Shown here: one piece after another, positions 34,083 through 49,715 of the stretch
Layout of the letters: each line of letters opens with the position of its first letter
Position numbering within the stretch: position 1 is the first letter of the stretch
Assembly: GCA_000002435.2 (NCBI GenBank)
Contig: CM018790.1
From: Giardia intestinalis
Taxonomy: Eukaryota
Length of the DNA: 64,000 nucleotides
Direction: 5' to 3' (one strand)
Notes under the pieces: generated by a model
Databases searched by the model: none
What the model saw: only the letters and a program-made list of their open reading frames with translations
Told to the model about the DNA's origin: nothing
Translations under genes and position numbers: made by a program

Positions 34083-35095
34083 CAAACCTTAAAAATACAA
34101 TTATTTCTTTTTTAATGCCCGCTACACTCCATGTTGTCACGCCTGGCAAGCTTCCTTTGGGGTCTGTAGCACGCGCAGCCTATGGAATTCGTCGCAGCCC
34201 CATTTATGAAGTCGTAGTTGCGGATAGCCTTGATTACCTCCTTGAGTCTAATTCGACTGCCGAGCAGGTAGACGCCCGAGGGCTACTTTGTCGAGCGGCC
34301 ATAGATTCTCTTACTAAGGTCACTGATGGTCAGCATGTGCGATGCCTATCTGAGCTCCTTCTGCCCTGTACCAGTTGCGATCTTTTATGGCCGGTAACCT
34401 TTGAAGTGTCGCGGCTGATGACGCTTGAGCATGCTTCCGCCGTTTTTGACAAGAAGGTAAAGAACCTCCTGGCCTCGGAAACGCTTCTGCCATGCATTAT
34501 CTCCGCTCTGGCAAAGACCCACCAACGCTATCCTATCCGGGTCTGTGTCAGCGAATACCCTACCTTGGATGGCTTTCTGAATGCTCCTACAAAGCCATGT
34601 CTCCTTCCAACGGGGCAATTGTTTAGGACAACTCGGGGGAGGATAGTTAGCAAAACACTAACACCCCTTCCATATCTTAGACAGAATCCCGTGACAGAAG
34701 TGGACAAGGAGCACTCAACCATATACTGCACAGATACACCGGCAGAGATAGCAAAGAAGATCGCAAAAGCTTATTGCCAGCCCACAGACATAGAGAACAA
34801 CCCTCTTTTGGCATACCTAGAGGAGATTGTATTCCCGTATAGCAAACTAGTCACAGGGAAACCTATACACATAAATGCCGTAGTTTATAATGATATGGAA
34901 GAAGTCCGAAGAGCGTTCCGTGAGGATAAGATCACGCCCCAGTGTCTGAAGAAGGTTATGGCAGAGAAATTAGGGGAGATCGTCTCGCGTATCCAGGGCT
35001 TCCCACAGTATGCTGAGGCTGAGGCACTACTGAAGACCGTGCTCGATAAGGAGAAGCAGGAAAAGAAGAGTAAGAAAGACAAGAAGCAAAAGTGA
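34076..35095 (+). CDS. Hypothetical protein, 339 aa (326 aa if it starts at the second ATG, 34115, which directly follows the AT-rich initiator). It has a Lys-rich C-terminal tail (KEKQEKKSKKDKKQK) and no recognisable domain.
   Basis: Clean ORF. The ATG at 34076 overlaps the 5' end of the divergent WD40 gene by 7 nt. The ATG at 34115 is preceded by cttaaaaatacaattatttcttttttaATG. Confidence 0.5.
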   Translation: MPSNLKNTIISFLMPATLHVVTPGKLPLGSVARAAYGIRRSPIYEVVVADSLDYLLESNSTAEQVDARGLLCRAAIDSLTKVTDGQHVRCLSELLLPCTSCDLLWPVTFEVSRLMTLEHASAVFDKKVKNLLASETLLPCIISALAKTHQRYPIRVCVSEYPTLDGFLNAPTKPCLLPTGQLFRTTRGRIVSKTLTPLPYLRQNPVTEVDKEHSTIYCTDTPAEIAKKIAKAYCQPTDIENNPLLAYLEEIVFPYSKLVTGKPIHINAVVYNDMEEVRRAFREDKITPQCLKKVMAEKLGEIVSRIQGFPQYAEAEALLKTVLDKEKQEKKSKKDKKQK

Positions 35096-35097
35096 AT
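35091..35097 (+). terminator. AGTGAAT polyadenylation signal overlapping the TGA stop (35093-35095) of the 34076-35095 gene.
   Basis: Sequence ...caaaAGTGAATcact... The minus-strand gene's stop codon starts 1 nt later, at 35097. Confidence 0.55.
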
Positions 35098-36527
35098 CAC
35101 TCGTTGAAGATGGCCCACAAGGACCGAGATTCTTGCTCGTGCTCGTACTCATAGTCCACCTCGCTACTGACAGCGTTGTGGAGGCTCGACTCGCTCCGGA
35201 AAGAGTCTAGTGCCCCTCCTTCCAAGTGGCTAGCGAGGTCTTCACGAATACTGGCAGGCAATCCGCGATCGTTGCGCACGCTTTCTGCAGCAGTGAGCCC
35301 GCTATGCTCAGCTCGCTGTCTTTTACGTTGCACAGAAGCATCCTCTTCTGGATCGACAGTTCCCTCTCTTGCTGCTTGAAGAGCGCGATAAAAGTCTCCG
35401 TGCTGAGCATCAAATAACTGAAGCTTTGCTTGCCTGACACCTGCAGGAGCAATATATTCCTGAATAGAGATGTCGCTTGCCAGACTCAAATCAATTGGTA
35501 TGGACATTGCAGTCGCCTGTGCGCCCTGAGCTAAAAGCGATCCTAGACTTGCCAACTGTTCGTGTGCTGCAGATTCTGCATAGTGCCGATGGTAAAGATG
35601 TCTGCGTACAAGAGATGGGGGCCGTACGTCTACGCCCTCAAGGTCGAGGTCTACATTACGAAGAACATCACCAATGGTTAGCTTGGCGAATAGCTCTGAT
35701 GATTGCATTTCTTGGAGACGGCGCGCAATGGTGTCTGGAGAACAAAAGACACAGCGGGAAATGCGATGAATGGGTATCCCATAGTTTAGTAACTTAAGCG
35801 CAACAAAAATACTGGCGCCTAACAAGCCTGATGGAAGCCTGCCGGTGTGAATATTAATAGCGGTAGAGGCCTTAAGAATGTACTTAGATACAACAAGAGT
35901 ATGCTCACGGAGCTGATCCACAGATGTTATGTGGATATTAGCGAAAAGCATACAATCTCTGTTGTCTTGAAATGCAGTCGTGAACTCTTCTTTCAGAATA
36001 CTATCCACAAACCGTGGTAACAGTGATTCAAGATCCTGGTAAGGTAGCTTGATATTATATTGACGCAGAAATGGCTGTATGTACTTGTTGAGCGTGAAAA
36101 CAGAAACGTTAAGAGCATCTGCATAGTCTATCAGAAGATGGGAGAGGTTGTGCTGTCGCCCCACAATGTAAAGAAGAGCTGCTGCCAAGAGATTGTTTCT
36201 CCGTCCTCTCGTTGCTTTGTCGCGCAGACAATTGGCATAGTAGTCGCTGGCTTTCCGAACAAGCTCCATTGGTAAATTTAGAATCATTGCAATTGTCTCT
36301 AGCTCCTTGGAAAAGTGTTTGATTGCAAGACTGCGAGCCGTGGAGGAGGTGTTAGCGCTTATGAAGTTCCCCATCACGGTGGACACACCATTTTGATCTT
36401 GGTAGATTAGATCATTGACAATGAGAGTGTCCATGATTACAAGCCCACAGTTACCACAGAACACTTTTGCTTGGCCCTCGTCAGTTATCGTGCTATTGGA
36501 AAGGCAAAATGGACATGAAATGGACAT
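35097..36527 (-). CDS. TFIIB-related transcription factor, 476 aa: an N-terminal zinc ribbon and two cyclin-like repeats plus a ~150-aa C-terminal extension. BRF1/TFIIIB-like or TFIIB.
   Basis: MSISCPFCLSNSTITDEGQAKVFCGNCGLV is a C-x2-C...C-x2-C zinc ribbon. Two cyclin-fold repeats follow (…LLAAALLYIVGRQHN…; …GLLGASIFVALKLLNYGIPI…). ATG at 36525-36527 with an AT-rich initiator. Confidence 0.65.
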   Translation of the reverse strand: MSISCPFCLSNSTITDEGQAKVFCGNCGLVIMDTLIVNDLIYQDQNGVSTVMGNFISANTSSTARSLAIKHFSKELETIAMILNLPMELVRKASDYYANCLRDKATRGRRNNLLAAALLYIVGRQHNLSHLLIDYADALNVSVFTLNKYIQPFLRQYNIKLPYQDLESLLPRFVDSILKEEFTTAFQDNRDCMLFANIHITSVDQLREHTLVVSKYILKASTAINIHTGRLPSGLLGASIFVALKLLNYGIPIHRISRCVFCSPDTIARRLQEMQSSELFAKLTIGDVLRNVDLDLEGVDVRPPSLVRRHLYHRHYAESAAHEQLASLGSLLAQGAQATAMSIPIDLSLASDISIQEYIAPAGVRQAKLQLFDAQHGDFYRALQAAREGTVDPEEDASVQRKRQRAEHSGLTAAESVRNDRGLPASIREDLASHLEGGALDSFRSESSLHNAVSSEVDYEYEHEQESRSLWAIFNE

Positions 36528-36589
36528 TCTTTTTTGATTGTTTACTCTGTCCCAGCAGATGATGATTCACTCCACCCAGCGGTTGCTCC

Positions 36590-36875
36590 CAGTGCTGTGC
36601 TGCCAGATTTACCTGCGGGTATGGTCTAGCAATCTTGTGGGTAAATTGTCGCTTAATTCCTAGCCAATCCGGAGACGACTGTTGGTCATTGATAACATAA
36701 CAAGAGGGTCCTCTCCAGTGATACATCCAGGGCCCGGTACATTTCTCTTCCGTTTCATGGGCGTGTGCTCTGTCTGGATGTGCACGTCAGCCTACCTAGG
36801 ATTCAACTTACTTGCCCATCTGCGTCGTCCACCAGTGATTTCTCTCCTTGGTCTACCGCTCTGATGGTGGAGGGT
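36590..36875 (+). repeat. Copy A of a diverged direct repeat of ~285 bp, roughly 65-75% identical by eye to copy B at 42062-42350.
   Basis: Matching blocks: GTGCTGCCAG/GTGCTACCGG; ccGGAGACgActgTTGGTcaTTGATaACATAACaAGaGG vs ccGGAGACaAaggTTGGTtgTGGATgATATAACgAGgAG; GTGTGCTCtGtCTGgaTGTGCAC vs GTGTGCTCaGCTGAgTGTGCAC; CaTCtgCGTCGTCCACCAGTG...CTCTCCTTGGTCT vs CATCGTCCACCAGTG...CTCTCCTTGGTCT. Confidence 0.55.
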
Positions 36876-37495
36876 CTTAACAGTTGATGTTCCTGGACCG
36901 ACGCCTCGACAGACCGAAGCATCACCCAAGTGTGCTGTGCAGATGGACCAGCCCACACGTCACCGAGCCAGACGCACTGCACAGGGTGAGCGTCGACATG
37001 ATCTCGCGCTGGATGGTGGAGCACCTCTGCGATCCGTGAGCAGAGGGTCATACTTCTCCCCCGACACCACCGCATAGGAGCTGTCCACTGGCATCCACGA
37101 ATGCGTACTATGACTCCAAGATAGAGGCGCACGGGGAGCGCACCTCCGATCATACTCGGGACCGATGCTCGCTTCATGAGAAGACGAAGAGGCACCCGAG
37201 GAACGGGGTAGATACCCGGGGTCGCGGTGTGCAATCTCCGTCGTAGAGCATCAGCACCACAAAGCTACTCCGGAGTGCATGGCCAGAGTCAACTGCTCTG
37301 AGGCCAGATCGCCGCGACAGACGCAAGGCCCGAGACAGCGGGTGCTCAATAGATGTCAGACGATAGCTGACCCAAGCCAGTCAGAGAGAAGAGACGCCCC
37401 GGAGCGCATAGTGGAGCACCCAACGGCTCCCAGGCGGGATGCACAAGGCTCTTCTCCAGAGTGGGCGGCATCCGAGCTTCGGACTCTGGACGGGT

Positions 37496-39633
37496 TTACT
37501 CGGACAGGAGCTGGCAAGCCGACATTGTTGAAACAGAGTAGATCTCGTTTGGGAGGATGCCTACTATCTCCATGCGATCCTTCTTCTTAGCGATATTGAG
37601 GGCAGTGGTACCGGGCGAGTGACCATGGCAGCTGCAGGTTGTCTTCAGATCTTTCTCGTTTTCCTTAAGAAGTCTTGCACACTCCACGGTGTTACTATAT
37701 GCCGCACTCATAAGGGCGATCTCCCTTGGTCGTTTGCATGCCGCCTTCCTCCTTCATTAGGAGCCTGACGCACTCTGGATGATCATTGCACACCGTCCAT
37801 GTGAGGACAGTCTGATGCTCGTTGTTCCTTATGCCAGTCTCCTGCTCGAGTAGCTCTACGATTCCTTCGTGCCCTCGTGCTGCTGCATACATGAGCTCCG
37901 TCCACCCTGAGATACTGCTCTCATACTCCATCAAAAGCTCAACGTGCCCAATATAGTCCACCAGGGGGTCATTGGAACGGTCGCACCGTGCCGCGAATAC
38001 GAGAGCGGCCCAACCGCCTACTTTCTCTCCCTTTTCGTGCTCTGCTAGCAGTTCTACTATTTCTGCGTATCCATTGCCGCAGCCATCATCAGAGCTGTTC
38101 CTTTGCGCATGTACCATCCGCTTCTTGTGACCTCTTTGTATGTTTTCCTCCCCCTCTGGATGGGTAAGAGTGCTTTTACAGCCCCCGCGTCGTTTCTATT
38201 GACAGCTCGCATGAGCGCCGTGACGCCGTTCTCATCGGTTGGGTCGATGGCCTCCACCACGGTTCCATGTCCTGCCTCTGCCGCAATCACCAAGGCCGTC
38301 TTGCCTTCGCTGCCGATCCGGTCCTTCTCATATGGGACCAGAAGGGAGGCAGCTCTTGCATAGTCCTCCTCTGTGGCGATCATCAGGTAGTCCAGCCATT
38401 CTTGTCCTGGAGACCGTTCTCCTCCCCAACAAGCAACTCGACGGGACTGATGCGCCCCTGCTCGTCGCGCTGACCAACACCGAGTCTTTCTTCAAGCAGC
38501 ATCCAGACGGTCTCCGTGCTATTCGTATGCGCGGCACGCATCAGCCCGGGCAACAAAAAGAGGCTGGACTGAGGGTCAGTCGTGTTCATCCTGTCATCGA
38601 ACTGTGCAAGCTTATTCTCCAGTGCCTTAATCATAGCTAGATGTTCCTTGCACTGATCTTCAAGTGCGTCGATCTAGTGGATTTAGTCTTAACATCCTCT
38701 TCCAGCAGCGCGATCCTGGCGTTAGCGCCATTCAGCGCAGCCTCCAAGGATCTGCACCTGTACCTCAGCATCACGCACTGACCCCCCAGCTCACTAACTG
38801 GGATGTCGAATGTAGCGAGCGTCTCGTGCAGCTCCCTGGCCGTCGGCCTCCTTCCAGGATCCAGCACGAATATCCCCTCCAGAACATTCTGCATGAAGCC
38901 ATCAGTGACACCGCTCAGGTCCGGCCTCCATCCATCAACGAAGACCTCTGCTGGCTCCTTGCCCCCCAAGAAGTTTGGTCTCCTCAGAGTAGTAAGTTCA
39001 TAAATGATGACCCCGAGGCTCCACACGTCGGAAGCATGGCTGGTCTCATTACGGAGGAGAATCTCGGGGGCCATGTATACTGCCGTGCCTGCAATGGTGC
39101 TCCCGCATCTCAGGGCGTCCTTACAGAGGCCGAAGTCGGCGATGATGAAGTGTTCACCATCTGCGCTGACGAGGACGTTCGCAAGCTTGAGGTCGCGGTG
39201 GACGAGGCCCTTGTAGGGGCGACCGTCGGCACCCACTCCGCTGAGGCCGTGGAGGTAGGCGAGGGCGGCGGCGACCTGCTTCATGACAGAGAGGATCACA
39301 GCGATAGGGACGGGGATCTTCCTTCGTTTGTGCTCGGTGAGGAGGCGCTCAAGGGTCTTGTCGTGCCGGTCCGTGACGACGTAGATGAGGCCCTCGTCTT
39401 CAATCACTTGATGATACTTGAGGACCCGGGTGAAAGATGTTAAGAAGGGCGGCCAGCCTACGCTTAATAGCATCCACACCGTGCTGATCCAGACCGTCGA
39501 GCCGGATCTCCTTCACAGTGAGGTGGGGGCATCCCTTGGGAGAGTAGATAACACTGAAGGCCCCCGCTGAGCACGGGGATGCCACCAGCGCCCATCGGCT
39601 CTGCAAAGCCGCTAACTGCACTGTTACTAGCAA
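37496..39633 (-). pseudogene. Disrupted NEK-type protein kinase plus ankyrin-repeat gene. The kinase N-lobe, the catalytic core with a coiled coil, and at least four ankyrin-repeat segments lie in six different ORF fragments separated by at least five frameshifts or stops.
   Basis: Fragments 39400-39633 (…SAGAFSVIYS…VKEIRLDG…LNIFHP), 38637-39479 (VLKYHQVIEDEGLIYVVTDRH…HRDLKLANVLV…DFGLCK…YMAPE…coiled coil), and 38383-38634, 38057-38383, 37695-38117, 37496-37711 (ankyrin repeats). The frame changes at ~39425-39430 (a CCCGGG run), ~38640-38675, 38383, ~38057-38117 and ~37700. Confidence 0.55.
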
Positions 39634-40263
39634 CTCCTAGGGCGCCCTCTGCGGTGGCTGGGACAGGGAGTGGAGTCAACAGCCATCGCTAATCTTAACG
39701 CAATCCGGAGCCACCCTTTGGAGTGGCCTTGGCTACTGCCCGAGCAAGGCGCCCAGTGTGAGCTGCCGATGACAGGCCAAGGAGGGCATACTCGCGGCTC
39801 GTATGGTCCTAAGCAGGTCGGATTCTGGAGGCTAACACGGAGCGCCCCGACAAAACACGCCGACTGGGGACCACACTGAGCTCTGGATGCATCAATAGAG
39901 AGAAGCTCTTAGTATGTTATCCACAACCAGACCTCGTCTCCGGACGGCTGGGAAGTGAGCGCGGCTTACCCGTGGGACCTCTGAGCGCACCTGCAGGCGG
40001 CCCCAGCGATACAGTGACGGCAATGTACAGGAGTGCACCCCGAGCAATCACTCCACAAGAGAGGTGCGATTTGAGTCTGGCCCTCACTGGTCCTGTTCCT
40101 ATGGAAGTCAGAGAGAACTACACTATCAGCTGGCCTCCAGTGAGCGTGCTCCTATCTTGTCCTTCTTCAGTCCAACTGGTTAAGGGAGCAAGAGCAGCTG
40201 TCTCTCACTGCTCGCGGCAACACATCAGCCTGACAGAAGAGCAGTGGCATACTAACCCGGCTA

Positions 40264-42027
40264 ATGTTGGTAGGATTTCTCCTAGTTTGTGCAACAGTGC
40301 TGGCAAAGGACAGCGGGAAGGACACATGCTTCCCGGGATACACCCTCAACCCCACCACGAAGAAGTGCGACAGGAACTCCGCGCCGTGCGAGGTCGAGGG
40401 CTGTGATGTCTGCGAGGAAAGCAACCCCCAGCAGTGCAAGACGTGCGGCTCAGGCTACACCCTCAACCCCACCACGAAGAAGTGCGACAGGAACTCCGCG
40501 CCGTGCGAGGTCGAGGGCTGTGATGTCTGCGAGGAAAGCAACCCCCAGCAGTGCAAGACGTGCGGCTCAGGCTACACCCTCAACCCCACCACGAAGAAGT
40601 GCGACAGGAACTCCGCGCCGTGCGAGGTCGAGGGCTGTGATGTCTGCGAGGAAAGCAACCCCCAGCAGTGCAAGACGTGCGGCTCAGGCTACACCCTCAA
40701 CCCCACCACGAAGAAGTGCGACAGGAACTCCGCGCCGTGCGAGGTCGAGGGCTGTGATGTCTGCGAGGAAAGCAACCCCCAGCAGTGCAAGACGTGCGGC
40801 TCAGGCTACACCCTCAACCCCACCACGAAGAAGTGCGACAGGAACTCCGCGCCGTGCGAGGTCGAGGGCTGTGATGTCTGCGAGGAAAGCAACCCCCAGC
40901 AGTGCAAGACGTGCGGCTCAGGCTACACCCTCAACCCCACCACGAAGAAGTGCGACAGGAACTCCGCGCCGTGCGAGGTCGAGGGCTGTGATGTCTGCGA
41001 GGAAAGCAACCCCCAGCAGTGCAAGACGTGCGGCTCAGGCTACACCCTCAACCCCACCACGAAGAAGTGCGACAGGAACTCCGCGCCGTGCGATACTCCC
41101 AACTGCAAGGCCTGCGACAACCCCAAAACAGACAACGAAATCTGCACTGAATGTAATGATAACAATTATCTCACTCCAACCAGTCAGTGCGTATCTGACT
41201 GCACGACCCTCAAGGGCTACTACGGAGACGATAGTGGCAAAAAGACATGCAAGAGGTGCAACGATGCGTGCGCAGAGTGTAAGGGTGAGGGTGCTGATAA
41301 GTGTACGGCCTGCCCTGCTGGGAAGATGCTTCAGTATACAGATGCTGATACTCCTGCCAATGGGGGCACGTGCATGAACCAGTGCAGCGTGAGCCCTGCA
41401 AACGATGGATGCGCAGAGTGTGGGGCCCAAATAGGAGGAACTGCATATTGCTCAAAGTGCAAGAACACTCAACAGGCACCACTGGATGGCAACTGTGCGG
41501 CCAATACGCGAACACGATTTTGCACTACGGTGAGTAATGGAGCATGCACTCAATGTGAAAATAACTACTTCCTCAAAGATGGCGGTTGCTATCAAACAAA
41601 TAGACAGCCTGGTAAACAAGTGTGCACCCAAGCTAACGGAGGAAAGTGTCAGACATGTGCCAATGGCTTAGCAGCAACTGATGGCAACTGTGCAGAATGT
41701 CATCCTACTTGTGCTACGTGCTCGACTGCAGGTACGGCTGACAAGTGTAAGACCTGTGCCACTGGGTATTACAAGGAAAACGGTAGCGATACCACTACTG
41801 GGTTATGCAAGAAGTGCTCAGAGAAGATCTCTGGATGCAAGCAATGTGTGTCATCATCTGGCAGTTCAGTCATATGTTTAGAATCAGAAGTAGGCACTGG
41901 TGGAAGCGTCAACAAGAGCGGCCTCTCCACGGGGGCCATCGCGGGGATCTCCGTTGCTGTGATTGTTGTCGTCGGAGGGCTTGTCGGATTCCTTTGCTGG
42001 TGGTTCCTCTGCCGCGGGAAGGCGTAG
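40264..42027 (+). CDS. vsp: Variant-specific surface protein (VSP), 587 aa: signal peptide, six and a half identical 39-aa Cys-rich tandem repeats, a unique CXXC-rich region, a transmembrane helix and the invariant CRGKA tail.
   Basis: MLVGFLLVCATVLA signal peptide; many CXXC motifs; C-terminus …IAGISVAVIVVVGGLVGFLCWWFLCRGKA*. Confidence 0.9.
   Translation: MLVGFLLVCATVLAKDSGKDTCFPGYTLNPTTKKCDRNSAPCEVEGCDVCEESNPQQCKTCGSGYTLNPTTKKCDRNSAPCEVEGCDVCEESNPQQCKTCGSGYTLNPTTKKCDRNSAPCEVEGCDVCEESNPQQCKTCGSGYTLNPTTKKCDRNSAPCEVEGCDVCEESNPQQCKTCGSGYTLNPTTKKCDRNSAPCEVEGCDVCEESNPQQCKTCGSGYTLNPTTKKCDRNSAPCEVEGCDVCEESNPQQCKTCGSGYTLNPTTKKCDRNSAPCDTPNCKACDNPKTDNEICTECNDNNYLTPTSQCVSDCTTLKGYYGDDSGKKTCKRCNDACAECKGEGADKCTACPAGKMLQYTDADTPANGGTCMNQCSVSPANDGCAECGAQIGGTAYCSKCKNTQQAPLDGNCAANTRTRFCTTVSNGACTQCENNYFLKDGGCYQTNRQPGKQVCTQANGGKCQTCANGLAATDGNCAECHPTCATCSTAGTADKCKTCATGYYKENGSDTTTGLCKKCSEKISGCKQCVSSSGSSVICLESEVGTGGSVNKSGLSTGAIAGISVAVIVVVGGLVGFLCWWFLCRGKA
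40336..41091 (+). repeat. Perfect tandem repeat inside the VSP: a 117-bp unit (39 aa, GYTLNPTTKKCDRNSAPCEVEGCDVCEESNPQQCKTCGS) in six full copies plus a 54-bp partial seventh. Copies begin at 40336, 40453, 40570, 40687, 40804, 40921 and 41038.
   Basis: Read directly; the copies appear nucleotide-identical. Confidence 0.9.
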
Positions 42028-42042
42028 ACTTAGGTAGTAAAC
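42028..42042 (+). terminator. VSP extended polyadenylation element ACTTAGGTAGTAAAC, containing AGTAAAC at 42036-42042, immediately after the TAG stop.
   Basis: Sequence ...ggcgTAGACTTAGGTAGTAAACgcatt... matches the conserved VSP 3' motif ACTYAGRTAGTRAAY. Confidence 0.75.
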
Positions 42043-42061
42043 GCATTACTTTATGTAGCTT

Positions 42062-42350
42062 ATGTGGATGTGCTACCGGGTGCTTGTAGGTACGATCCAG
42101 AAATCTCACGAATAAATTCTCGCTCCTTTGGCCGTGTCCGGAGACAAAGGTTGGTTGTGGATGATATAACGAGGAGCTCCTCTCTTTTAGTATATCTAAA
42201 ACCTGGCACCTTCCCTGGTCGCTCCGCAGGGGTGTGCTCAGCTGAGTGTGCACACCCGGGAATGCTTGCTCAGTCGGCCTGGGATTCCGCTTACTCACCA
42301 TGTACATCGTCCACCAGTGGCGCCTCTCCTTGGTCTTCCTTCACGGTGGG
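42062..42350 (+). repeat. Copy B of the diverged direct repeat (see 36590-36875). It starts ~35 bp after the VSP polyA signal and is followed by ~430 bp of very GC-rich sequence with no ORF.
   Basis: Alignment blocks listed under copy A. Confidence 0.55.
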
Positions 42351-42977
42351 TGAAGCCCGGGTCGCCGTCTTTTTTAGATGCCCCGTCTGTCAGGGGCTGC
42401 CACCGGGCTCTCCGCTGGCTGGGCCCTCGGTGTCCGTCCGGCTGTGTCCCGGTCCAACTGGTGGGTAGAGGCAGGGGGATTGCTGGGGCAGTGAGGACCG
42501 AGTGGGTGGTGTCCATCTGTGCCCCTGGGCTCTCGGTGGGCCATTGGGGCGGTGGGTGATTCTCGCTCTGTTTGCTGCAGTGGTTGTGTCTGATCTCCAG
42601 CCCGCGCTGCACGAGATATAAGCCAGGCACCGACGATCACACTAGGTCCCTGGTCGTCCCTCTGCAAGAGTAGAGGGGAGCCCCTGTCTGCTGTCACAAC
42701 TACCCCACCCCCAGGCGGGTCCGGCAGCACCACAATGAAATCTTCAGCATGCACATTTTCTGCTCGTGTCATCGTAGTTTAGATTGTGCATATCTTAGTT
42801 ATACTAAACTCTACTTCATCAGCCACTAGAACTAGCATAGCTTGGAGCAGCGCTTATTTACTAACTATACTGATGTGTGCTTTACAGCTACACAGTAATC
42901 CACATAGAATACTAATCCATGTCAAGTTGCAAACTACTAAGGTTAGCGCTCATACTTCTTACGGTCCCTTCATGGCC

Positions 42978-45900
42978 TTAAATATCAGAACTGCCTGTGC
43001 TACACTGCCCAATTGATGTATTGCTACTTGTGACGCCAGAGGCTTTATTGACATGCATTGTGGATGGAACAGTGGATTGTATTGCTAACAGATTTGCCAA
43101 GGGAGCCGATTGGGCTATATCGGAAGCACTATGAGTGGAAGACGTATCTGAAATACTTGAAGGAGCCTTTGCTTCAACCACGTCTGTAGTTATCTTAATA
43201 GTTGATGTCTTTTTCCGTGAGTCTACATGTGATGGTGTAGACGGTGAGCTGGTATTTGATTCCGCTATGGGGTCGTCTAAATTCGCTGGTCTCTGGTCAG
43301 TACTATTGCCAAGAAAGCACAACTTTGGTATTATGGGGTGTGCACTCATTGTTTTCGACTGAAGATCTGTATCATCGTCGTCTTGGTTAACTAAGCGAAT
43401 GCGTGTGATTGGTGTCTTGATACCTGCGGACTCTTTCGGAAGGGACTGCAAATTTAGTGCAGGAATTACTAGAGGGCTCCGTGGAGAAGTGGGGCGCAGC
43501 TGTGGCTTAGCATCGCTACCCGCTGGAGTCCCTGTCGAAGTGCTACTTTCTCCTTTCACAGTGAAATCATTCCATCGCGTCAGTTCGTACTGGATTGATG
43601 CATTTATCCAATGCAGTGGAAGATTGATGCGCCCTATCAAGAGAGTCCTAAGTCTCCGCAAGAAGAGACCCCTGGGGAAGCTGGATTCCTGTTTGCTAAG
43701 AACACACGGGTCCCATGAAATATGGCGCCCATACCGGTAAAGAAAACAATAGTGTGCGGTTAGTAGTTGAATGCGGCACAGATTGAAGCCTTGCATATCC
43801 ACCTCAGGCCGTGTACACTTGCAACAACAGCACATATATTGTGAGGTCCCATGACCGATATCTGGAAAGATAGTAGGCGGGGGGTATGAGTATCTGTACT
43901 CTGGAGTAGAGCCGACTAACGACTCTTGCATGCTGTTAATAGGCTCGTCTGCAGAAAAGTGGAGCGTAGAAAGAGTAGGAGGACGGGCCTGTTGCTGTTG
44001 ATTGGATGGCGTAATTGTGCTGTTATTAGTAACAATACTTGTTGTGCGTAGCTTGCTTAAGGATCCTGTTGTACGAGTTTGGCGTTTATTACGCATTAGT
44101 ATGATATCTGAAGCATTCTGCTGGTCATCTTCATTGTAGGGCTCATAGTAGAAGCTGTTATTCCTACTCACTATACTATGTTCTCCGTGAGGTTCATCAT
44201 CGACATTGTCGTCATCGATAGTTGTGCAAATCGAGTCATCAAAGATGCTTGTAAGACCTCCTACATCCTTTAGCTCTTTGCGGATCTGAGACGCCACAAT
44301 ACAATCCTCCAAAGAGCGTGTAAACATCCTATCCCGATATAAAAAGCGTTGCTCAGCCCCCATATCCTTGAAAATCTCTGGATTCCCTGTTTCAGTCGAG
44401 CTTTCTCGTTCCTTAAGACTGGTCTGCTTCTGGTGTCCTTCTATTCCTGCGAGTATTTTGCCTATAGCTGTTCTATTGTATAACTTGTTCCGCTGGATAT
44501 ACTTGTCATTCAATGCGGAATCAAGGGGCTTCTCCGGTTGCTCATCAACTACGTCTTGCTCTCTTTCAGGCTTAATACTACCAGAGAGATCAACGCTCTT
44601 CTGAGACATAGCGCTACTTATTGAGGCTTCTTTTGCATCCAGTTCTCGTAGTACCGGCGAGCTCGGCTCTGGCCTGGCATGAAATTGTTGTTGTTGTTGT
44701 TGTTGTTGCTGTTGCTGTTGAGGCGATTGATTTGGTGTGGACTTAGTATTCCGCGTGGGAGAAAGCACGCAGCTTTGTGATGTAGCTAGAGTGGAGAACT
44801 GGAAGGCGTTTCCCGGTAAACTACGTGCAGACGGTCTCTGTGAAAACGCCTTTGACTTCACCTGATTATGATCTGCAAGTGGAGCAGAGGTCATACTGAT
44901 ATGTTCAATTTCAGAAATTTCTTGAATATCCAGTTTGATCCCTGAAAGCGTCTTTGTGGACAGAGGAGGGTTGGAGTACAAGGGGTTAGAGAGCGCCTTA
45001 ATCGGAACCGATGCAGACGATTTGTGTTCTGAGAACCCAGCAGTTAATTGATTGAACGGGGAGCTTGCGCGACTGCTTTCTAATGACTCAGTTAAAGAAG
45101 AGCTAGCACTTTGCGCACTAATGTCAGAGTGCTGAAGCATATGCGGTTGACTTTGCACTTCTGCCACGGGAAAAAGAGGCCCAGGCTGGAAACTATTAAT
45201 ATCATCTTTTAGATAGTATTCTACGTCTCTCTCATTGCCCAGGGTCTCTGAGAAAGACCTGGTAAGCATCTGATACCATAGTCGCGTTCCCAATTCATAA
45301 AAGGACGATCCTACCGTTAGCGTAGTTAATCCATCAATTACGTTTTGCAACTGCATTCGCTTAAGCTTTGCAATGATGCTTCTAAGCGTGGGGCACTTTC
45401 TGATGGTGTTGAGGGTCTCCTGATCATCCAAATCGAAAAACGAGTTGGCATTATGGGCGTTTCCGTGAAGCAGACGAAGAGAAAACTCGACAGCATTCTG
45501 GGAGCTCCCAATATAAACATCCAAAGGGGATATCTTTTCAGACCAATCAAAATTATGAATATGGAGAATATTTTTCTCATCGACAAGGGCGTGAAGTACA
45601 TTTTCAAAGGAGTCGGACAGTATGGAGTCAAGGGTGTTCGACTCAGGTCCCTGTGAGCCATTCCCAGCCACACCATACTCTTGTCTCATAGAGGCATAAG
45701 CGTCGAGAAGAGGATGCTCAAAGCGGGCCGTGCTTTTGCTATCCAGTGAGGACACCCGCAAGTCGGGAGCTGAGAGAGAAACCTTGAGCGGTGGCGCAGA
45801 AGAGATTGGAGCCTGTTCGTGGGTTAGACTGCGCTGATATTTCTTGAGAAGCTTCTTGATGTAGTTGAAAATATGCTTACGACGGGGATAGAGGGATGCA

Positions 45901-48900
45901 GCCGACGACGCTTCAGCGACGAATTTCGAAGAATTAATAATCGACAGCAGTTGCTTGCTCCTTGTTCGTTCATTCAAAACAGGCGACGGAAGCCTGTATA
46001 GTAAGCTATCGGGGCTTCCATCATATAGTGATTCTGAGAGTACCCGTTCCAACAACGTTTTGACATGACGTGCCTCGTCCATTAGAGATACCGAGTTGCG
46101 CCTCACATTATCAGTGTGGAAAGTCGGCGAGGCTTTGGAGACCGTTTTCCGGTGTTCAAATATCCGGTCAACCATACAAATACCTGTGGATTTTCTGACC
46201 ACGTGTGCCTGTGCAATCTCAGGCACAGTAATATATACCGACTTATTAAACTCTGTGTCCGACAATAAATCAGATTGCCCTTCAGAGTCGAGACTAAAGG
46301 ACATGTGCCTGTTCAGAACATCACTGCTACTCATTGGACTCTTCGCTCTATTCTTTGAGCACAGCTCTGTTTTTGTTTTAAGCTTTTCTGAAGCGATGAT
46401 GTGGGCATGAGTATTAATCTTCTCCCCACTGGTAAAGTCATCTATGCGGTAACCTGTATGATTGAGCACATCATGTTTGGACTTTCTAAATAGCTTAGAA
46501 GAGAAGAGGGCCAGTGTGTTAGCCAGCAGAGGAATATCGGTGCACGTATAGATCATACTGTTGTCAATGGTGCTTGCAGTGATACACTTGCTATTATTAG
46601 CCAGCACGTATTGTCTGCGGCGCATAATTATCAGCATGTGAAACCGTCGGAGCTGATGGTAGTCTCTCTTCGCTTCTCTCCACAACGCACGGATGTTCCC
46701 AGACTTACTGGTCGCTACGGAGTGTGCGTGAGACAAAACAGAGTGCATCGTCGTTACACTGATGTCCGAAGTCCCCTTTGCCGGAATGCTCATTGGCAGC
46801 TTAAATTGTCTTGGATTGACAGCAGGATGATACATGCATTCAAACAGCGTGTATCTGTGACTTGGAATCTCGTCTAGAAGACCACACAGCAAGTCGGTAA
46901 TCAGCAATCCAAAGGTTCCACAGAGAGCAAAGGCTTCTTGGCTATACCTGTACAGAGGGGTTCGTCTGACCAAGCCTGTGAGTGAATGAAAAAGCATAAC
47001 TCCTGTTTGCCAAGCGTCTGCATGTACAGCTGAAAACAGGGAATGAGCCCTGTGTGGGTCGTGGTCACTACACGTCTGCATAACAGCGCGAGACTCGGGA
47101 GAAAGAATAGTCGGAGTCCCTGTGGAACTGCTAATAAAGTAGGTATTCCTTGGCATAGCCGGAAACGTGTTGATCTGTCTAATAGATGAGAGGTAGGATT
47201 GTAGTGCCTGCCCAACCTTGTTAGTCTCTATCGTCTCCTGAATGAAGTCTTCAATGCGGCTGATAGTGGAGAGAAGCGCAGCGTCTCGTTGTGACAGTGA
47301 GCTATTTGAAGTCTTAATTGAGCAATCAATGGCTGGCACCAACAAGGAGTTGTCAGCAGGGAAATCTGCGTCTAGATGGGTATGACCTTTGCATGTTTTC
47401 TCTGCAAGTCCAGTTCCATCGGGTGTTAAGTCAGTCAATTTCAAGCTCAGCGCGTCAGTGTGAAAAGCTTTTTGGAAGGTTGCCGCATGCGAATCATCGT
47501 CGAGCAAAGGAATGTCTACACAAGGCTCTAAGTTGCCTAAAAAGGCGTCCTTTTGGTCATCCAAGGAAAGAACCAGAGTAAGGCAAGAAGAGTGAAGCGC
47601 TCTTGTCACAGAACTTTTGTCACTAGTACGTGCAATATGAGCCGTATCAATGCTTGCATTGGGCTTTGCAGCAGTAACTGTTGCTTGTCGTAAGCTGAGA
47701 GTAGTATCCTTGCATGAAGAGTTGTTTGGTTTAATACTTATTTTGTCAAAAATAGGCTCCGACATATCAAATGATTGTGTCTCGTAGATTCCAGACATCC
47801 TGCATATCCCTATACTTCCATTAAGGGTGTCCATATCTATTTGTGAGGGCTTCAAAGACTGCTGTGAGTCGTCCAGCTTAGCTGCCTCAGTGCATATGGC
47901 AGTGCCCTCTTTGACTAAGATGTCAGCATTGAAGCTAAAGGCCGACGAAACTAAGTCGGCCTCTCTCCTAGATGAAGCATGCACACAGTCAGAATCCATA
48001 GAGGCTACTACATCATGACCCAACAAAAGGCTGCCTTCGTCTTCTTGTGGTAAAATACGTTGCCGCACAAGGTCATTAAAAAAGCATGTAAAGCTCTTGC
48101 GAAGAAGAGAAAGGTGTCTATTGTATATGCTTTTTAGTGTCTCTAGGACGGTCTGTGCTGTTGGTAGTCTGACCCCCTCTTCCTCGAGGATGATTGCAGT
48201 ATCAAAGTCACTGATCTTTGCACGGTAGGGTGCAGTATCCGAGTCCCCTAACAGATAGTACGTTATATCTGATGACTCTTTTAGTGATTGAAGTCTGTAC
48301 CGAGATCCGCTTGGAAGCAGCAAAGGAGAAAGAACGTTGTCATTGAGGCGAGAGGATATACGTGTAGGCCCTCTGGGCATAACAGTGGGCGGATTGGCGG
48401 CGGTTGGTAGTGCATTTTGTAAAGGAAGCTTCAAAGAAAGTGGGGGTATATTGTACCTATCTTTAGGGTCCCTCCTCAGCGTATTCTCAATTGGGTTGCT
48501 ATGAGATGGATCACTACTCAGAGCAGTACTTGCCAAGGGAGTGCTGGACTGAGATTGTACGGTCCCAACTGCAAAGTCACCTATTGTGCCTGAGGTGCTA
48601 GTAAAGAACAGGTCGGTCGTTCTGGGGACCTTCCGTGGAAGTAGCTTACTTGCAGGAGGTATCGGTGTCTTGAAATTGCTTTGAAGATCGGTGGTGATGA
48701 TGATGTTCTCTAATTTGATATCTTGGTGTACAACGTTGCAGAAGTGCATGTAGCAGAGAGCATCGACAACCTGATAGAAGAGTATCATGATCTTCTTTAG
48801 ATCTGCTGTGCGTACAACCTCCTGGAGGGTCCCCCCGTCACAGTACTCTATTATGAAAACGAAGTTATCATCATAGTTCATGGTGCACCGACCTGTGTTC

Positions 48901-49715
48901 TGATAGCGTGGAGTCAGGTTGGAGTCCAATTGGGAGCTACGGGCCGAGTATTGTTTGAGCTTACTGCCAGCCGATGGCATACGTCTATGGGCAAGCTCCG
49001 ATCCCTGGGTCAATGGTTTAGCAATACCATTAAGAGCCATCGGATTGTGCAAAAGAGGCTGCAAATCGGAGACAAGCTCTGGTTGTAGCATCCCCTTGGC
49101 GTTTGAGAGTTGATCAATAATAGATTGATACTTGCAGGGAAGCTCACATATCAGGTTGACCTGCTGTGCAATAGACAGGATTGTCTGAACCCACGGGGGC
49201 AAGCTTCCCGGTGTTACGGCGTACTGACCGGCAAACGTAGAACCAGGAATTAGGGACTCCATAGAGTTCTCCACAGAGCAAACATCAGCGTAAATAGGGT
49301 GATGCATCACCTCAATGAGGTTAAGAATAGATGGGTGTGCGGTGGTCAAGAAATCCATGACCCGGGAGCAATTCCAAAGGAATTTGTCCGCAGATTCCTG
49401 GGTTAAGAGCTTACGCCTCAGAGAAGTTCGGTTGATCATGCGCATGGCTGCTTTTTGCTCTGTAAGCGGGTTATGGCATAGTCTCACGTTGGCATAGGCA
49501 CCCCGACCGATTGTTCTCTGTATGATCCACTCGTTAATGCACACGTTCCCCTGGGCTGTCGTTGTAACCCAGATCCGATCCTTGACTGGAACTCGAAGCA
49601 GTCCTGGCAGAAATGGAGCAGAGATGCCTGTCAAAAGGTGGAAGACGCCTGTCGCTGACTCTGACGTACTAGATGTGCTGTCAGTACTTGCATGGTTCAC
49701 TTCATGCAAGGCCAT
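42978..49715 (-). CDS. Large protein of 2,245 aa with an N-terminal protein-kinase-like domain split by long insertions (probable pseudokinase or very divergent kinase), a polyQ tract, and a long low-complexity C-terminus.
   Basis: Subdomains I-II IGRGAYANV…KAAMRMI (the beta-3 Lys is Arg), HPSILNLIEVM, a ~200-aa insert, FVFIIEYCDGGTL, VHQDIKLENIII (HRD replaced by HQD), a ~170-aa insert, ISDFDTAII (DFG replaced by DFD), DAWQTGVMLFHSLTG, and PSHRYTLFECMYHPAV. Confidence 0.6.
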   Translation of the reverse strand: MALHEVNHASTDSTSSTSESATGVFHLLTGISAPFLPGLLRVPVKDRIWVTTTAQGNVCINEWIIQRTIGRGAYANVRLCHNPLTEQKAAMRMINRTSLRRKLLTQESADKFLWNCSRVMDFLTTAHPSILNLIEVMHHPIYADVCSVENSMESLIPGSTFAGQYAVTPGSLPPWVQTILSIAQQVNLICELPCKYQSIIDQLSNAKGMLQPELVSDLQPLLHNPMALNGIAKPLTQGSELAHRRMPSAGSKLKQYSARSSQLDSNLTPRYQNTGRCTMNYDDNFVFIIEYCDGGTLQEVVRTADLKKIMILFYQVVDALCYMHFCNVVHQDIKLENIIITTDLQSNFKTPIPPASKLLPRKVPRTTDLFFTSTSGTIGDFAVGTVQSQSSTPLASTALSSDPSHSNPIENTLRRDPKDRYNIPPLSLKLPLQNALPTAANPPTVMPRGPTRISSRLNDNVLSPLLLPSGSRYRLQSLKESSDITYYLLGDSDTAPYRAKISDFDTAIILEEEGVRLPTAQTVLETLKSIYNRHLSLLRKSFTCFFNDLVRQRILPQEDEGSLLLGHDVVASMDSDCVHASSRREADLVSSAFSFNADILVKEGTAICTEAAKLDDSQQSLKPSQIDMDTLNGSIGICRMSGIYETQSFDMSEPIFDKISIKPNNSSCKDTTLSLRQATVTAAKPNASIDTAHIARTSDKSSVTRALHSSCLTLVLSLDDQKDAFLGNLEPCVDIPLLDDDSHAATFQKAFHTDALSLKLTDLTPDGTGLAEKTCKGHTHLDADFPADNSLLVPAIDCSIKTSNSSLSQRDAALLSTISRIEDFIQETIETNKVGQALQSYLSSIRQINTFPAMPRNTYFISSSTGTPTILSPESRAVMQTCSDHDPHRAHSLFSAVHADAWQTGVMLFHSLTGLVRRTPLYRYSQEAFALCGTFGLLITDLLCGLLDEIPSHRYTLFECMYHPAVNPRQFKLPMSIPAKGTSDISVTTMHSVLSHAHSVATSKSGNIRALWREAKRDYHQLRRFHMLIIMRRRQYVLANNSKCITASTIDNSMIYTCTDIPLLANTLALFSSKLFRKSKHDVLNHTGYRIDDFTSGEKINTHAHIIASEKLKTKTELCSKNRAKSPMSSSDVLNRHMSFSLDSEGQSDLLSDTEFNKSVYITVPEIAQAHVVRKSTGICMVDRIFEHRKTVSKASPTFHTDNVRRNSVSLMDEARHVKTLLERVLSESLYDGSPDSLLYRLPSPVLNERTRSKQLLSIINSSKFVAEASSAASLYPRRKHIFNYIKKLLKKYQRSLTHEQAPISSAPPLKVSLSAPDLRVSSLDSKSTARFEHPLLDAYASMRQEYGVAGNGSQGPESNTLDSILSDSFENVLHALVDEKNILHIHNFDWSEKISPLDVYIGSSQNAVEFSLRLLHGNAHNANSFFDLDDQETLNTIRKCPTLRSIIAKLKRMQLQNVIDGLTTLTVGSSFYELGTRLWYQMLTRSFSETLGNERDVEYYLKDDINSFQPGPLFPVAEVQSQPHMLQHSDISAQSASSSLTESLESSRASSPFNQLTAGFSEHKSSASVPIKALSNPLYSNPPLSTKTLSGIKLDIQEISEIEHISMTSAPLADHNQVKSKAFSQRPSARSLPGNAFQFSTLATSQSCVLSPTRNTKSTPNQSPQQQQQQQQQQQQFHARPEPSSPVLRELDAKEASISSAMSQKSVDLSGSIKPEREQDVVDEQPEKPLDSALNDKYIQRNKLYNRTAIGKILAGIEGHQKQTSLKERESSTETGNPEIFKDMGAEQRFLYRDRMFTRSLEDCIVASQIRKELKDVGGLTSIFDDSICTTIDDDNVDDEPHGEHSIVSRNNSFYYEPYNEDDQQNASDIILMRNKRQTRTTGSLSKLRTTSIVTNNSTITPSNQQQQARPPTLSTLHFSADEPINSMQESLVGSTPEYRYSYPPPTIFPDIGHGTSQYMCCCCKCTRPEVDMQGFNLCRIQLLTAHYCFLYRYGRHISWDPCVLSKQESSFPRGLFLRRLRTLLIGRINLPLHWINASIQYELTRWNDFTVKGESSTSTGTPAGSDAKPQLRPTSPRSPLVIPALNLQSLPKESAGIKTPITRIRLVNQDDDDTDLQSKTMSAHPIIPKLCFLGNSTDQRPANLDDPIAESNTSSPSTPSHVDSRKKTSTIKITTDVVEAKAPSSISDTSSTHSASDIAQSAPLANLLAIQSTVPSTMHVNKASGVTSSNTSIGQCSTGSSDI
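44686..44721 (-). repeat. (CAA/CAG)n microsatellite, read as (TTG)n on the plus strand, encoding a ~12-residue polyglutamine run in the kinase-like protein.
   Basis: ttgttgttgttgttgttgttgctgttgctgttg; the protein has QQQQQQQQQQQQ. Confidence 0.7.

What the first reader, a model, noticed from the sequence alone, without database searches (positions are those of the whole stretch)
40264..42042. Taxonomic anchor: a canonical Giardia VSP with CRGKA tail and the extended VSP polyA motif
The ORF ends with a transmembrane helix plus CRGKA and is followed by ACTTAGGTAGTAAAC. Both are diagnostic of Giardia variant-specific surface proteins. This fixes the window as Giardia nuclear DNA, so every other ORF should be read with Giardia rules: no introns, short AT-rich initiators, AGTRAAY polyA signals.
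Basis: partly seen in the sequence, partly recalled or inferred. Interest (0 to 1): 0.5.

Follow-up and report, generated by a model that had tools for sequence, protein, structure and literature searches.

The report
Known Giardia surface-antigen gene vsp101
This is an intact, already catalogued variant-specific surface protein gene (vsp101, GL50803_115047) of Giardia intestinalis WB, so it correctly shows the window is Giardia chromosome 2 but is not a new finding.

Summary
ORF 40264-42027 (+) encodes 587 aa, ends ...FLCRGKA*, and is followed directly by ACTTAGGTAGTAAACGC. That is a full match to the published VSP-specific extended polyadenylation signal, and it occurs once in the window against 0 expected by chance.

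Every published defining feature of a Giardia intestinalis VSP is present:
- a signal-peptide-like leader;
- 79 Cys and 26 CXXC motifs;
- a GGCY motif;
- the conserved C-terminal transmembrane helix;
- the CRGKA tail;
- the TAATGTT initiator around the ATG;
- Pfam PF03302 at E = 5e-87.

The protein is 100% identical to XP_001706212.1 / KAE8302259.1. This is GL50803_115047, listed as vsp101 in Adam et al. 2010: clade II, six 117-nt repeats, chromosome 2. Eight of the nine neighbouring ORFs I looked up are also exact WB C6 proteins, so the taxonomic anchor holds.

The gene carries 6.5 perfectly identical 117-bp (39-aa) tandem repeats at 40339-41093. It also sits, with a frameshifted NEK-ankyrin kinase pseudogene, in a GC-rich block of about 6.3 kb that is absent at the syntenic site in assemblage E (P15). 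That insertion is already published too. Verdict: correct, ordinary, already known.

The parts
40262..40268 (+). VSP initiator / Kozak-like element TAATGTT (consensus PyAATGTT) spanning the start codon
   Evidence: Sequence. Consensus and VSP specificity. Adam 2010 Additional file 1 lists TAATGTT for this gene.
40264..42027 (+). Complete coding sequence of VSP GL50803_115047 (vsp101): 587 aa plus TAG stop
   Evidence: ORF. Pfam PF03302 E = 5e-87. Exact identity to XP_001706212.1 / KAE8302259.1 / A8BLZ5. Gene ID.
40264..40308 (+). Signal-peptide-like leader MLVGFLLVCATVLAK. The same leader, or one differing at one residue, is found in other VSPs and cysteine-rich proteins (P0001, P0003, P0004).
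   Evidence: AlphaFold helix at aa 2-16. No dedicated signal-peptide predictor was run.
40339..41093 (+). Tandem array of 6.5 copies of a 117-bp unit (39 aa, YTLNPTTKKCDRNSAPCEVEGCDVCEESNPQQCKTCGSG), 100% identical with no indels
   Evidence: TRF. Protein-level copies. The same unit is listed for this gene in published supplements. The repeat has no close relative elsewhere.
41065..41937 (+). Non-repetitive cysteine-rich ectodomain block (aa 268-558), 76-82% identical to other WB and Giardia VSPs. It includes the GGCY motif at aa 440-443.
   Evidence: AlphaFold pLDDT is mostly above 90 here. Furin-like and EGF-like fold matches.
41938..42009 (+). Conserved VSP transmembrane helix (aa 559-582, AIAGISVAVIVVVGGLVGFLCWWFL)
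   Evidence: Kyte-Doolittle maximum. Nearly invariant alignment columns. Model helix 559-584.
42010..42024 (+). Cytoplasmic pentapeptide CRGKA
   Evidence: Defining role described.
42028..42044 (+). Extended VSP polyadenylation signal ACTTAGGTAGTAAACGC, with the core AGTAAA hexamer at 42036-42041. It starts 0 nt after the stop codon.
   Evidence: Published consensus. FIMO hit GACTTAGGTAGTAAACGCAT, p = 8.7e-11, for this gene.
37496..39633 (-). Context: degenerate NEK-type kinase plus ankyrin-repeat pseudogene lying head-to-head with the VSP. It has at least four frame changes relative to an 85%-identical paralogue in isolate DH.
   Evidence: ORF fragments. Pkinase and Ank Pfam hits. tblastn frames -2/-3/-2/-1/-3. 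Listed as 'Kinase, NEK GL50803_137735' in the WB insertion.
36559..42852 (.). Context: block of about 6.3 kb (GC 0.52-0.60) holding the NEK pseudogene and the VSP. It is present in WB but replaced by about 550 bp of unrelated intergenic DNA between the BRF gene and the 2237-aa kinase gene in assemblage E isolate P15.
   Evidence: P15 locus L002. Alignment limits. GC profile. Published as 'Insertion of gene cluster in WB' CH991763(757605..763790).
36650..36857 (+). Context: left copy of a repeated flanking element 'E' (core GGAGAC..TGG..GAT.A.AT). Short-read contigs from many A1 isolates end at its core.
39880..40007 (-). Context: inverted copy of element E between the NEK pseudogene and the VSP promoter region
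42136..42339 (+). Context: right copy of element E, about 110 nt downstream of the VSP stop. The same element follows two other VSP genes in isolate DH.

Best explanation
Window 40264-42044 is the complete gene for variant-specific surface protein vsp101 (GL50803_115047, XP_001706212.1) of Giardia intestinalis assemblage A1 isolate WB clone C6, on chromosome 2. It encodes a type I membrane protein made of four parts. First comes a cleavable leader. Second is an ectodomain that starts with 6.5 identical 39-aa cysteine modules and continues with a 290-aa cysteine-rich block shared with clade II VSPs. Third is the conserved VSP transmembrane helix. Fourth is the 5-residue CRGKA cytoplasmic tail. 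Shown here: the sequence features, identity to the catalogued gene, family membership, and a rod of small disulfide-type beta-hairpin modules in the predicted model. Inferred from established VSP biology and not tested here: the protein is one of about 136 alternative coats, only one of which covers a trophozoite at a time. Transcription starts at the TAATGTT initiator and the transcript is cleaved about 15 nt after the AGTAAA core of the extended signal. The tail Cys and Arg are modified post-translationally. The perfect tandem array was generated and kept uniform by unequal recombination or slippage, and is likely to be an immunodominant epitope. As a taxonomic anchor, the gene correctly identifies the window as G. 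intestinalis nuclear DNA.
For: ORF, tail and 3' motif are at the stated coordinates. Pfam VSP scores E = 5e-87. All named hits among the 120 listed of 176 homologues are Giardia. Exact-sequence look-up returns KAE8302259.1 / XP_001706212.1 / A8BLZ5 'VSP', G. intestinalis WB C6, on a 1,539,535-bp contig, and 8 of 9 neighbouring ORFs looked up are also exact WB proteins. Adam 2010 Additional file 1 lists vsp101, GL50803_115047, clade II, TR117 x6, chr 2, TAATGTT, 587 aa, 79 Cys, 13.5%, 26 CXXC. My own counts are the same. The Rodriguez-Walker supplements give the same CDS, the same 117-nt repeat unit, the PAS hit and RNA-seq values of about 6-9 versus 90-200 in two sample groups. Transcript changes and a yeast-display hit are reported for ORF 115047. 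The AlphaFold model has mean pLDDT 83, an all-beta-hairpin ectodomain and a C-terminal helix. Its best local fold matches are R-spondin furin-like repeats (prob 0.99, TM 0.55-0.65 on the target) and EGF-like arrays.
Against: Nothing contradicts the identification. Four limits remain. Surface expression and switching of this particular VSP were not tested and cannot be tested here. The signal peptide was judged from sequence and the model only. Repeat copy number could differ between alleles or isolates. Fold-search matches for the whole chain are weak (TM on the query about 0.1), as expected for a flexible modular rod.
Confidence: 0.97

Rival explanations
1. The ORF is a non-variant cysteine-rich membrane protein (HCMP/CRMP) or a VSP pseudogene, not a functional VSP.
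For: Giardia has about 94 CRMPs and several hundred VSP pseudogenes with similar ectodomains. A close relative on the same chromosome (P0003) carries YRGKA and is annotated as a high cysteine membrane protein. The adjacent NEK gene is a pseudogene.
Against: The ORF is intact from a TAATGTT initiator ATG through to CRGKA and the extended PAS. CRMPs lack both CRGKA and the Inr. The gene is classed among the 136 complete VSPs and has RNA-seq signal.
Confidence: 0.02
2. The window comes from another Giardia assemblage or species, or from a non-Giardia organism that carries a VSP-like gene.
For: VSP-like cysteine-rich proteins occur across the Giardia assemblages and in G. muris.
Against: There are exact amino-acid matches to WB C6 for the VSP and 8 neighbouring ORFs, whereas the DH, GS and P15 orthologues are distinct cluster members. 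G. muris tails are GCRGK. The P15 syntenic site lacks the gene. No non-Giardia name appears among the listed homologues.
Confidence: 0.01
3. The perfect 6.5-copy tandem array is an assembly artefact, either collapsed or expanded, so the true gene has a different length.
For: [quoted passage not shown] Short-read assemblies do not recover this protein: only one contig is on record for it.
Against: The 2007 Sanger-based (XP_001706212.1) and 2020 long-read (KAE8302259.1) annotations give the identical 587-aa product. Adam 2010 independently lists about 6 copies. The 755-bp array is well within the length of a single Sanger or PacBio read.
Confidence: 0.05

Closest known systems
vsp101 / GL50803_115047 (XP_001706212.1, KAE8302259.1, UniProt A8BLZ5), G. 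intestinalis WB C6 chromosome 2
   Same: It is the same gene. Identical features are the 587-aa sequence, the 117-nt repeat unit, the TAATGTT initiator, the counts of 79 Cys and 26 CXXC, and the extended PAS.
   Different: Nothing differs.
Repeat-bearing VSPs such as VspA6/CRP170 (195-bp x ~22) and VspC5 (105-bp x ~25), described in Adam et al. 2010
   Same: The architecture matches: a short leader, then a tandem array of a cysteine module, then a non-repetitive block, then the conserved TM and CRGKA.
   Different: The repeat unit is unrelated in sequence and shorter in total (117 bp x 6.5). The repeats of each of the 30 TR-containing VSPs are reported as unique to that gene, which agrees.
O97448 'cysteine-rich protein' (P0004, 645 aa) and WB 'VSP with INR' P0001 (445 aa)
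   Same: The leader is identical or nearly identical: MLVGFLLVCATVLAKDSGKD in P0004 and MLIGFLLVCATVLAK in P0001. The C-terminal 310-aa block is 77-81% identical. Each has a tandem array inserted at the same position.
   Different: The arrays are unrelated: 76-aa period in P0004 and 37-aa period in P0001, against 39 aa here. Overall identity is only 53-65%.
HCMP/CRMP GL50803_101589-like protein (P0003, YRGKA tail) and its DH relative P0071 in a NEK(-)/VSP(+) cassette
   Same: The leader is the same, the C-terminal block of P0003 is 80% identical, and the head-to-head NEK-kinase/VSP arrangement with element E is the same. DH locus L001 is 84-86% identical to window 37027-40307.
   Different: The ectodomain N-terminal part differs and there is no tandem array. 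P0003 has Y instead of C in the tail. These loci are paralogous, not allelic. Equating P0003 with GL50803_101589 is my inference from the YRGKA tail, not a look-up.
Furin-like and EGF-like cysteine-rich repeats (R-spondin Fu1-Fu2, EGFR cysteine-rich domain, Pfs25, megalin EGF arrays)
   Same: The predicted ectodomain is a chain of small disulfide-type beta-hairpin modules. The local superposition on R-spondin Fu1-Fu2 has prob 0.99 and rmsd 3-4.4 A over about 107 residues.
   Different: Sequence similarity is not significant: there are no PDB sequence hits at E <= 0.01. Whole-chain TM scores are low. This is a resemblance of fold type only, with no implied shared function.

Membership tests
Giardia intestinalis variant-specific surface protein (VSP; Pfam PF03302; criteria of Adam 2010 and Rodriguez-Walker 2022) | Pfam VSP profile above the gathering score | tested here: met
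   292.7 bits against a cut-off of 31.4, E = 5.4e-87
Giardia intestinalis variant-specific surface protein (VSP; Pfam PF03302; criteria of Adam 2010 and Rodriguez-Walker 2022) | C-terminal cytoplasmic pentapeptide CRGKA directly before the stop | tested here: met
   ...FLCRGKA*. It is the only RGKA* in six frames of the window. The criterion is stated.
Giardia intestinalis variant-specific surface protein (VSP; Pfam PF03302; criteria of Adam 2010 and Rodriguez-Walker 2022) | Single, highly conserved C-terminal transmembrane domain | tested here: met
   Hydropathy maximum at aa 559-582. Residues 557-581 are nearly invariant in a 53-sequence alignment. Model helix 559-584.
Giardia intestinalis variant-specific surface protein (VSP; Pfam PF03302; criteria of Adam 2010 and Rodriguez-Walker 2022) | Cysteine-rich ectodomain with many CXXC motifs (the GGCY motif is added from my own knowledge) | tested here: met
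   79 Cys (13.4%), 26 CXXC, GGCY at aa 440. The published median is 26 CXXC per VSP.
Giardia intestinalis variant-specific surface protein (VSP; Pfam PF03302; criteria of Adam 2010 and Rodriguez-Walker 2022) | N-terminal signal peptide | tested here: inconclusive
   The hydrophobic leader MLVGFLLVCATVLAK is shared with other VSPs and modelled as a helix at aa 2-16. No signal-peptide predictor is available here. The published analysis states that all 136 VSPs have a signal peptide.
Giardia intestinalis variant-specific surface protein (VSP; Pfam PF03302; criteria of Adam 2010 and Rodriguez-Walker 2022) | Initiator / Kozak-like element PyAATGTT around the start codon | tested here: met
   TAATGTT at 40262-40268. 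Listed as TAATGTT for this gene.
Giardia intestinalis variant-specific surface protein (VSP; Pfam PF03302; criteria of Adam 2010 and Rodriguez-Walker 2022) | Extended polyadenylation signal ACTTAGRTAGTRAAYRY within 0-15 nt of the stop | tested here: met
   A 17/17 match at 42028-42044, 0 nt after the stop. Unique in the window, with 0 expected. Consensus.
Giardia intestinalis variant-specific surface protein (VSP; Pfam PF03302; criteria of Adam 2010 and Rodriguez-Walker 2022) | Mutually exclusive surface expression and switching (antigenic variation) | not testable with these tools
   Only indirect evidence exists: bulk RNA-seq values differ about 15-fold or more between two sample groups, and there is a microarray change.
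Tandem-repeat-containing VSP subgroup (30 genes in Adam 2010; 36 in Rodriguez-Walker 2022) | In-frame tandem repeats of 105 nt or more in the ectodomain, directly after the leader | tested here: met
   117 nt x 6.5, 100% identical, beginning at aa 26. Listed as TR117.
High-cysteine / cysteine-rich membrane proteins (HCMP/CRMP) | Cytoplasmic tail other than CRGKA, no Inr and no extended PAS | tested here: not met
   The tail is CRGKA, and both the Inr and the extended PAS are present. The gene is therefore not a CRMP under the criteria.
Giardia muris VSPs | C-terminal pentapeptide GCRGK | tested here: not met
   The tail is CRGKA. The G. muris criterion is.

The most novel reading that the evidence does not exclude
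The VSP and its NEK pseudogene neighbour are bracketed by copies of a 130-200-bp element E: a direct pair at 36650-36857 and 42136-42339, and an inverted copy at 39880-40007. This places the VSP between inverted copies. The same element flanks two other VSPs in isolate DH. Short-read assemblies of many A1 isolates break exactly at its core. E could therefore be the recombination or mobilisation substrate that inserted this 6.3-kb cassette into a housekeeping region in the assemblage A lineage, which would make it a defined 'VSP cassette' border and not just generic flanking similarity.
Probability: 0.12. Interest if true: 0.4.

Novelty: already known. Interest (0 to 1): 0.1.

Why it matters
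The value is practical. The gene fixes the window as G. intestinalis WB chromosome 2, so the remaining ORFs can be read against an annotated reference using Giardia conventions: very short intergenic regions, AGTRAA signals at or near the stop codon, and almost no introns. Biologically it is one ordinary member of the antigenic-variation repertoire. Its perfect repeat array and its lineage-specific insertion beside a decaying NEK kinase gene illustrate published generalisations about how the VSP repertoire diversifies, but they add nothing new to them.

Tried and rejected
- I suspected from memory that the repeat was the 40-aa 'toxin-like' repeat of CRP136. I rejected this because the period here is 39 aa (117 bp) and CRP136 is assigned to a different gene, GL_103142.
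- I looked for the same repeat in other isolates using a repeat-only protein search. The only hit was a 58%-identical two-module mini-VSP, P0217. The cluster representative for the query's own cluster is a 167-aa C-terminal fragment, so the gene itself does not appear in homology lists.
- Three exact-protein look-ups of WB loci failed: the VSP itself, P0003 and P0001. The WB genome is not in that gene-position index, so the genome-wide copy number of element E in WB could not be counted.
- I took DH contig AHGT01000023 to be the orthologous locus because it also carries the neighbouring genes. Its VSP (P0071) turned out to sit in a paralogous NEK/VSP cassette at the contig start, only 84-86% identical, with different downstream genes. 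The true DH syntenic interval could not be fetched.
- The assemblage B contig ends 128 bp from BRF and is uninformative.
- An Rfam scan of the whole window found nothing at gathering thresholds.
- A PDB sequence search found no solved relative.
- The 362-aa ORF in another frame across the repeats (40289-41377) arises only because the repeat lacks stops in that frame. It is not a gene.
- The MCM ORF at the right edge looked N-terminally short, but its reading frame simply runs off the window.
Full report
**Observation**

The window carries an ATG-initiated ORF at 40264..42027 on the + strand, 587 aa long, ending ...GGLVGFLCWWFLCRGKA followed by TAG. The next bases, 42028-42044, read ACTTAGGTAGTAAACGC. 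The degenerate 15-mer ACTYAGRTAGTRAAY occurs once in the 64-kb window on either strand, and none of 100 dinucleotide-preserving shuffles contains it. The 17-nt published consensus also matches only here, and RGKA-stop occurs once in all six frames.

**What it is**

Pfam's VSP family (PF03302) matches at 292.7 bits, E = 5.4e-87. A search of 5.8 billion proteins returned 176 hits. Every hit among the 120 listed that carries a name is from Giardia, covering WB, DH, GS/assemblage B and P15.

An exact-sequence look-up shows the protein is XP_001706212.1 = KAE8302259.1 = UniProt A8BLZ5, annotated 'VSP', from Giardia intestinalis ATCC 50803 / WB clone C6, on a 1,539,535-bp contig. Eight of nine other ORFs I looked up from the window are also exact WB proteins. 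They include BRF, a Maebl-like protein, IFT46, RNase L inhibitor and two ankyrin proteins. The ninth is an MCM gene that simply runs off the window edge.

Adam et al. 2010 (PMC2996952, Additional file 1) list this gene as vsp101, GL50803_115047. Their entry reads: clade II, TR117 (117 nt x 6), chromosome 2, complete, Inr TAATGTT, 587 aa, 79 Cys, 13.5% Cys, 26 CXXC. My independent counts from the window are the same. The supplements of Rodriguez-Walker et al. 2022 (bioRxiv 10.1101/2022.03.07.483299) agree on several points:
- the same CDS on NC_051857.1;
- the same 117-nt repeat unit;
- the PAS hit GACTTAGGTAGTAAACGCAT, p = 8.7e-11;
- RNA-seq values of roughly 6-9 in one group of samples and 90-200 in another.

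**Anatomy**

| Feature | Position | Evidence |
|---|---|---|
| Initiator TAATGTT (consensus PyAATGTT) | 40262-40268, spanning the ATG | |
| Hydrophobic leader MLVGFLLVCATVLAK | aa 1-15 | |
| 6.5 copies of a 39-aa unit (117 bp), 100% identical at the DNA level, no indels | aa 26-277; nt 40339-41093 | |
| Non-repetitive cysteine-rich block, 76-82% identical to other clade-II-type VSPs, with GGCY at aa 440 | aa 268-558 | |
| Conserved transmembrane helix | aa 559-582 | |
| CRGKA tail | aa 583-587 | |
| AGTAAA core of the extended signal | 8 nt after the stop | |

The repeat unit is YTLNPTTKKCDRNSAPCEVEGCDVCEESNPQQCKTCGSG. The seventh copy breaks off after ...CDRNSAPC and runs into CDTPNCKACDNPKTDNE, which begins the non-repetitive block.

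An AlphaFold2 model built on 53 homologues has mean pLDDT 83. It shows an N-terminal helix, an ectodomain made entirely of short beta-hairpins, and a C-terminal helix. Foldseek against the PDB gives only local matches to furin-like repeats and to EGF-like arrays. The furin-like matches are to R-spondin Fu1-Fu2, with prob 0.99 and rmsd 3-4.4 A over about 107 residues. The EGF-like matches are to Pfs25, megalin and the EGFR cysteine-rich domain. No solved structure is related by sequence.

**Relatives and the repeat**

Three proteins carry the same or a nearly identical leader and a 77-81% identical C-terminal block: P0001 (WB chromosome 5), P0003 (same chromosome, YRGKA tail) and P0004 (O97448 'cysteine-rich protein').

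P0001 and P0004 each carry a different tandem array at the same position, with periods of 37 aa and 76 aa.

A search with the repeat alone found one relative, a 149-aa mini-VSP from an ENA metagenome with two 58%-identical modules. This fits the published statement that the repeats of each TR-containing VSP are unique.

Perfect identity across 755 bp implies very recent amplification or continuing homogenisation by unequal exchange or slippage. That is an inference. The copy number itself is supported by identical products in the 2007 and 2020 annotations and by the six copies listed in 2010.

**Surroundings**

Upstream on the minus strand, at 37496-39633, lies a NEK-type kinase plus ankyrin-repeat gene. 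It is broken into at least five frame segments relative to an intact-kinase paralogue in isolate DH, so it is a pseudogene.

In assemblage E isolate P15, the BRF gene and the 2237-aa kinase gene flank the VSP/NEK block's position but are only about 700 bp apart. Nothing in that interval resembles the VSP or the NEK gene. Window ~36559-42852 is therefore a WB-lineage insertion, or a P15 deletion. It is GC-rich (0.52-0.60) against 0.45-0.49 in the flanks.

This exact event is already recorded in the P15 genome paper's Additional file 9 as 'Insertion of gene cluster in WB', CH991763(757605..763790). The entry lists Kinase NEK GL50803_137735 and VSP GL50803_115047. The same paper notes that VSP regions are GC-rich and associated with synteny breaks.

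**A repeated flanking element**

A 130-200-bp element, which I call E, occurs three times:
- at 36650-36857 (+);
- at 39880-40007 (-);
- at 42136-42339 (+).

The copies are 75-81% identical to one another. The cassette is thus bracketed by direct copies, and the VSP by inverted copies.

E also lies downstream of two other VSPs in DH, and upstream in inverted orientation of one of them. Short-read contigs from many A1 samples end within 3 nt of its core, which suggests it is multi-copy in those genomes.

Published work already reports conserved intergenic sequences and transposon relics around VSP genes, so I treat E as a side observation. The WB genome was not available for a genome-wide count.

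The anchor is sound. CRGKA, the Inr and the extended PAS are described as the defining and nearly exclusive marks of G. intestinalis VSP genes. G. muris VSPs end in GCRGK.

The derived 'rules' hold approximately:
- AGTRAA lies within -6..+45 nt of the stop in 8 of 15 large ORFs, against 1.7% of random windows. This matches the published figure of about 60%.
- Upstream AT-richness is variable, from 35% to 95%. The VSP itself is not AT-rich upstream.
- 'No introns' is a good working assumption, but Giardia has a handful of introns (introns are mentioned; otherwise my own knowledge).

**Mechanism**

The following rests on established VSP biology and is not shown here. The gene is one of about 136 alternative surface-coat genes, of which one product at a time covers the trophozoite. 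Switching is epigenetic or post-transcriptional. The disulfide- and metal-stabilised CXXC ectodomain resists proteases. The tail cysteine and arginine are modified post-translationally (notes that these residues are modified). Tandem repeats can be immunodominant, as shown for VspA6.

**Verdict**

The object is an already catalogued gene in an already described lineage-specific insertion, so novelty and interest are low.

Noticed in passing
window 37496-39633 (-): A NEK-type kinase plus ankyrin-repeat gene lies head-to-head with the VSP. It is split over at least five frame segments relative to an 85%-identical paralogue in isolate DH, so it is a pseudogene. No protein is annotated between BRF (KAE8302258) and the VSP (KAE8302259).
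   Followed up: yes
window 36650-36857 (+), 39880-40007 (-), 42136-42339 (+); also L001 2748-2862 (-) and 4380-4520 (+), L013 6799-6979 (+): A repeated 130-200-bp element 'E' has a conserved core (GGAGAC...TGG...GAT.A.AT...GAGAGGGTCCTCTC). It brackets the NEK/VSP cassette as direct copies and the VSP as inverted copies, and the same element flanks other VSPs in isolate DH.
   Followed up: partly
L005-L011 positions 1-31 = window ~36671-36701: Short-read (Logan) contigs from many independent A1 samples that carry the BRF gene all end within 3 nt of the element E core. This suggests the element is multi-copy in these genomes and breaks de Bruijn assemblies.
   Followed up: partly
window ~36559-42852 versus L002 9416-9969: A GC-rich block of about 6.3 kb (0.52-0.60 against 0.45-0.49 in the flanks) is present in WB. 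In assemblage E isolate P15 it is replaced by about 550 bp of unrelated intergenic DNA. This is already listed in the P15 paper as 'Insertion of gene cluster in WB'.
   Followed up: yes
window 5736-25955 (-): A giant uninterrupted ORF of 6739 aa has no Pfam domain in either half. An orthologue of 6729 aa exists in an assemblage-B-like metagenome contig (L003).
   Followed up: partly
window 34076-35095 (+) and 35097-36527 (-): Two convergent genes, a putative nucleotidyl transferase and BRF, have stop codons separated by a single base. AGTGAA overlaps the stop of the first gene. The first gene's annotated start also differs between genome versions (339 versus 326 aa).
   Followed up: no
window 40289-41377 (+): A 362-aa Arg/Pro/Ser/Thr-rich ORF lies in a second frame across the tandem repeats. 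It exists only because the repeat unit lacks stops in that frame and it has no independent support.
   Followed up: partly
window 62077-64000 (-): An MCM-family ORF has its P-loop domain starting at aa 74. The reading frame stays open to the window edge, so the gene is truncated by the window and is not unusually short.
   Followed up: yes
window 42978-49715 (-): A 2245-aa protein has only a partial kinase-domain match (aa 275-343). It is conserved and syntenic in P15 (2237 aa) and lies immediately downstream of the VSP insertion.
   Followed up: no
window 26382-31178 (+): A 1598-aa ABC transporter with two ABC_membrane and two ABC_tran domains. Its 3' end (30000-31000) is as GC-rich (0.60) as the VSP region.
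   Followed up: no
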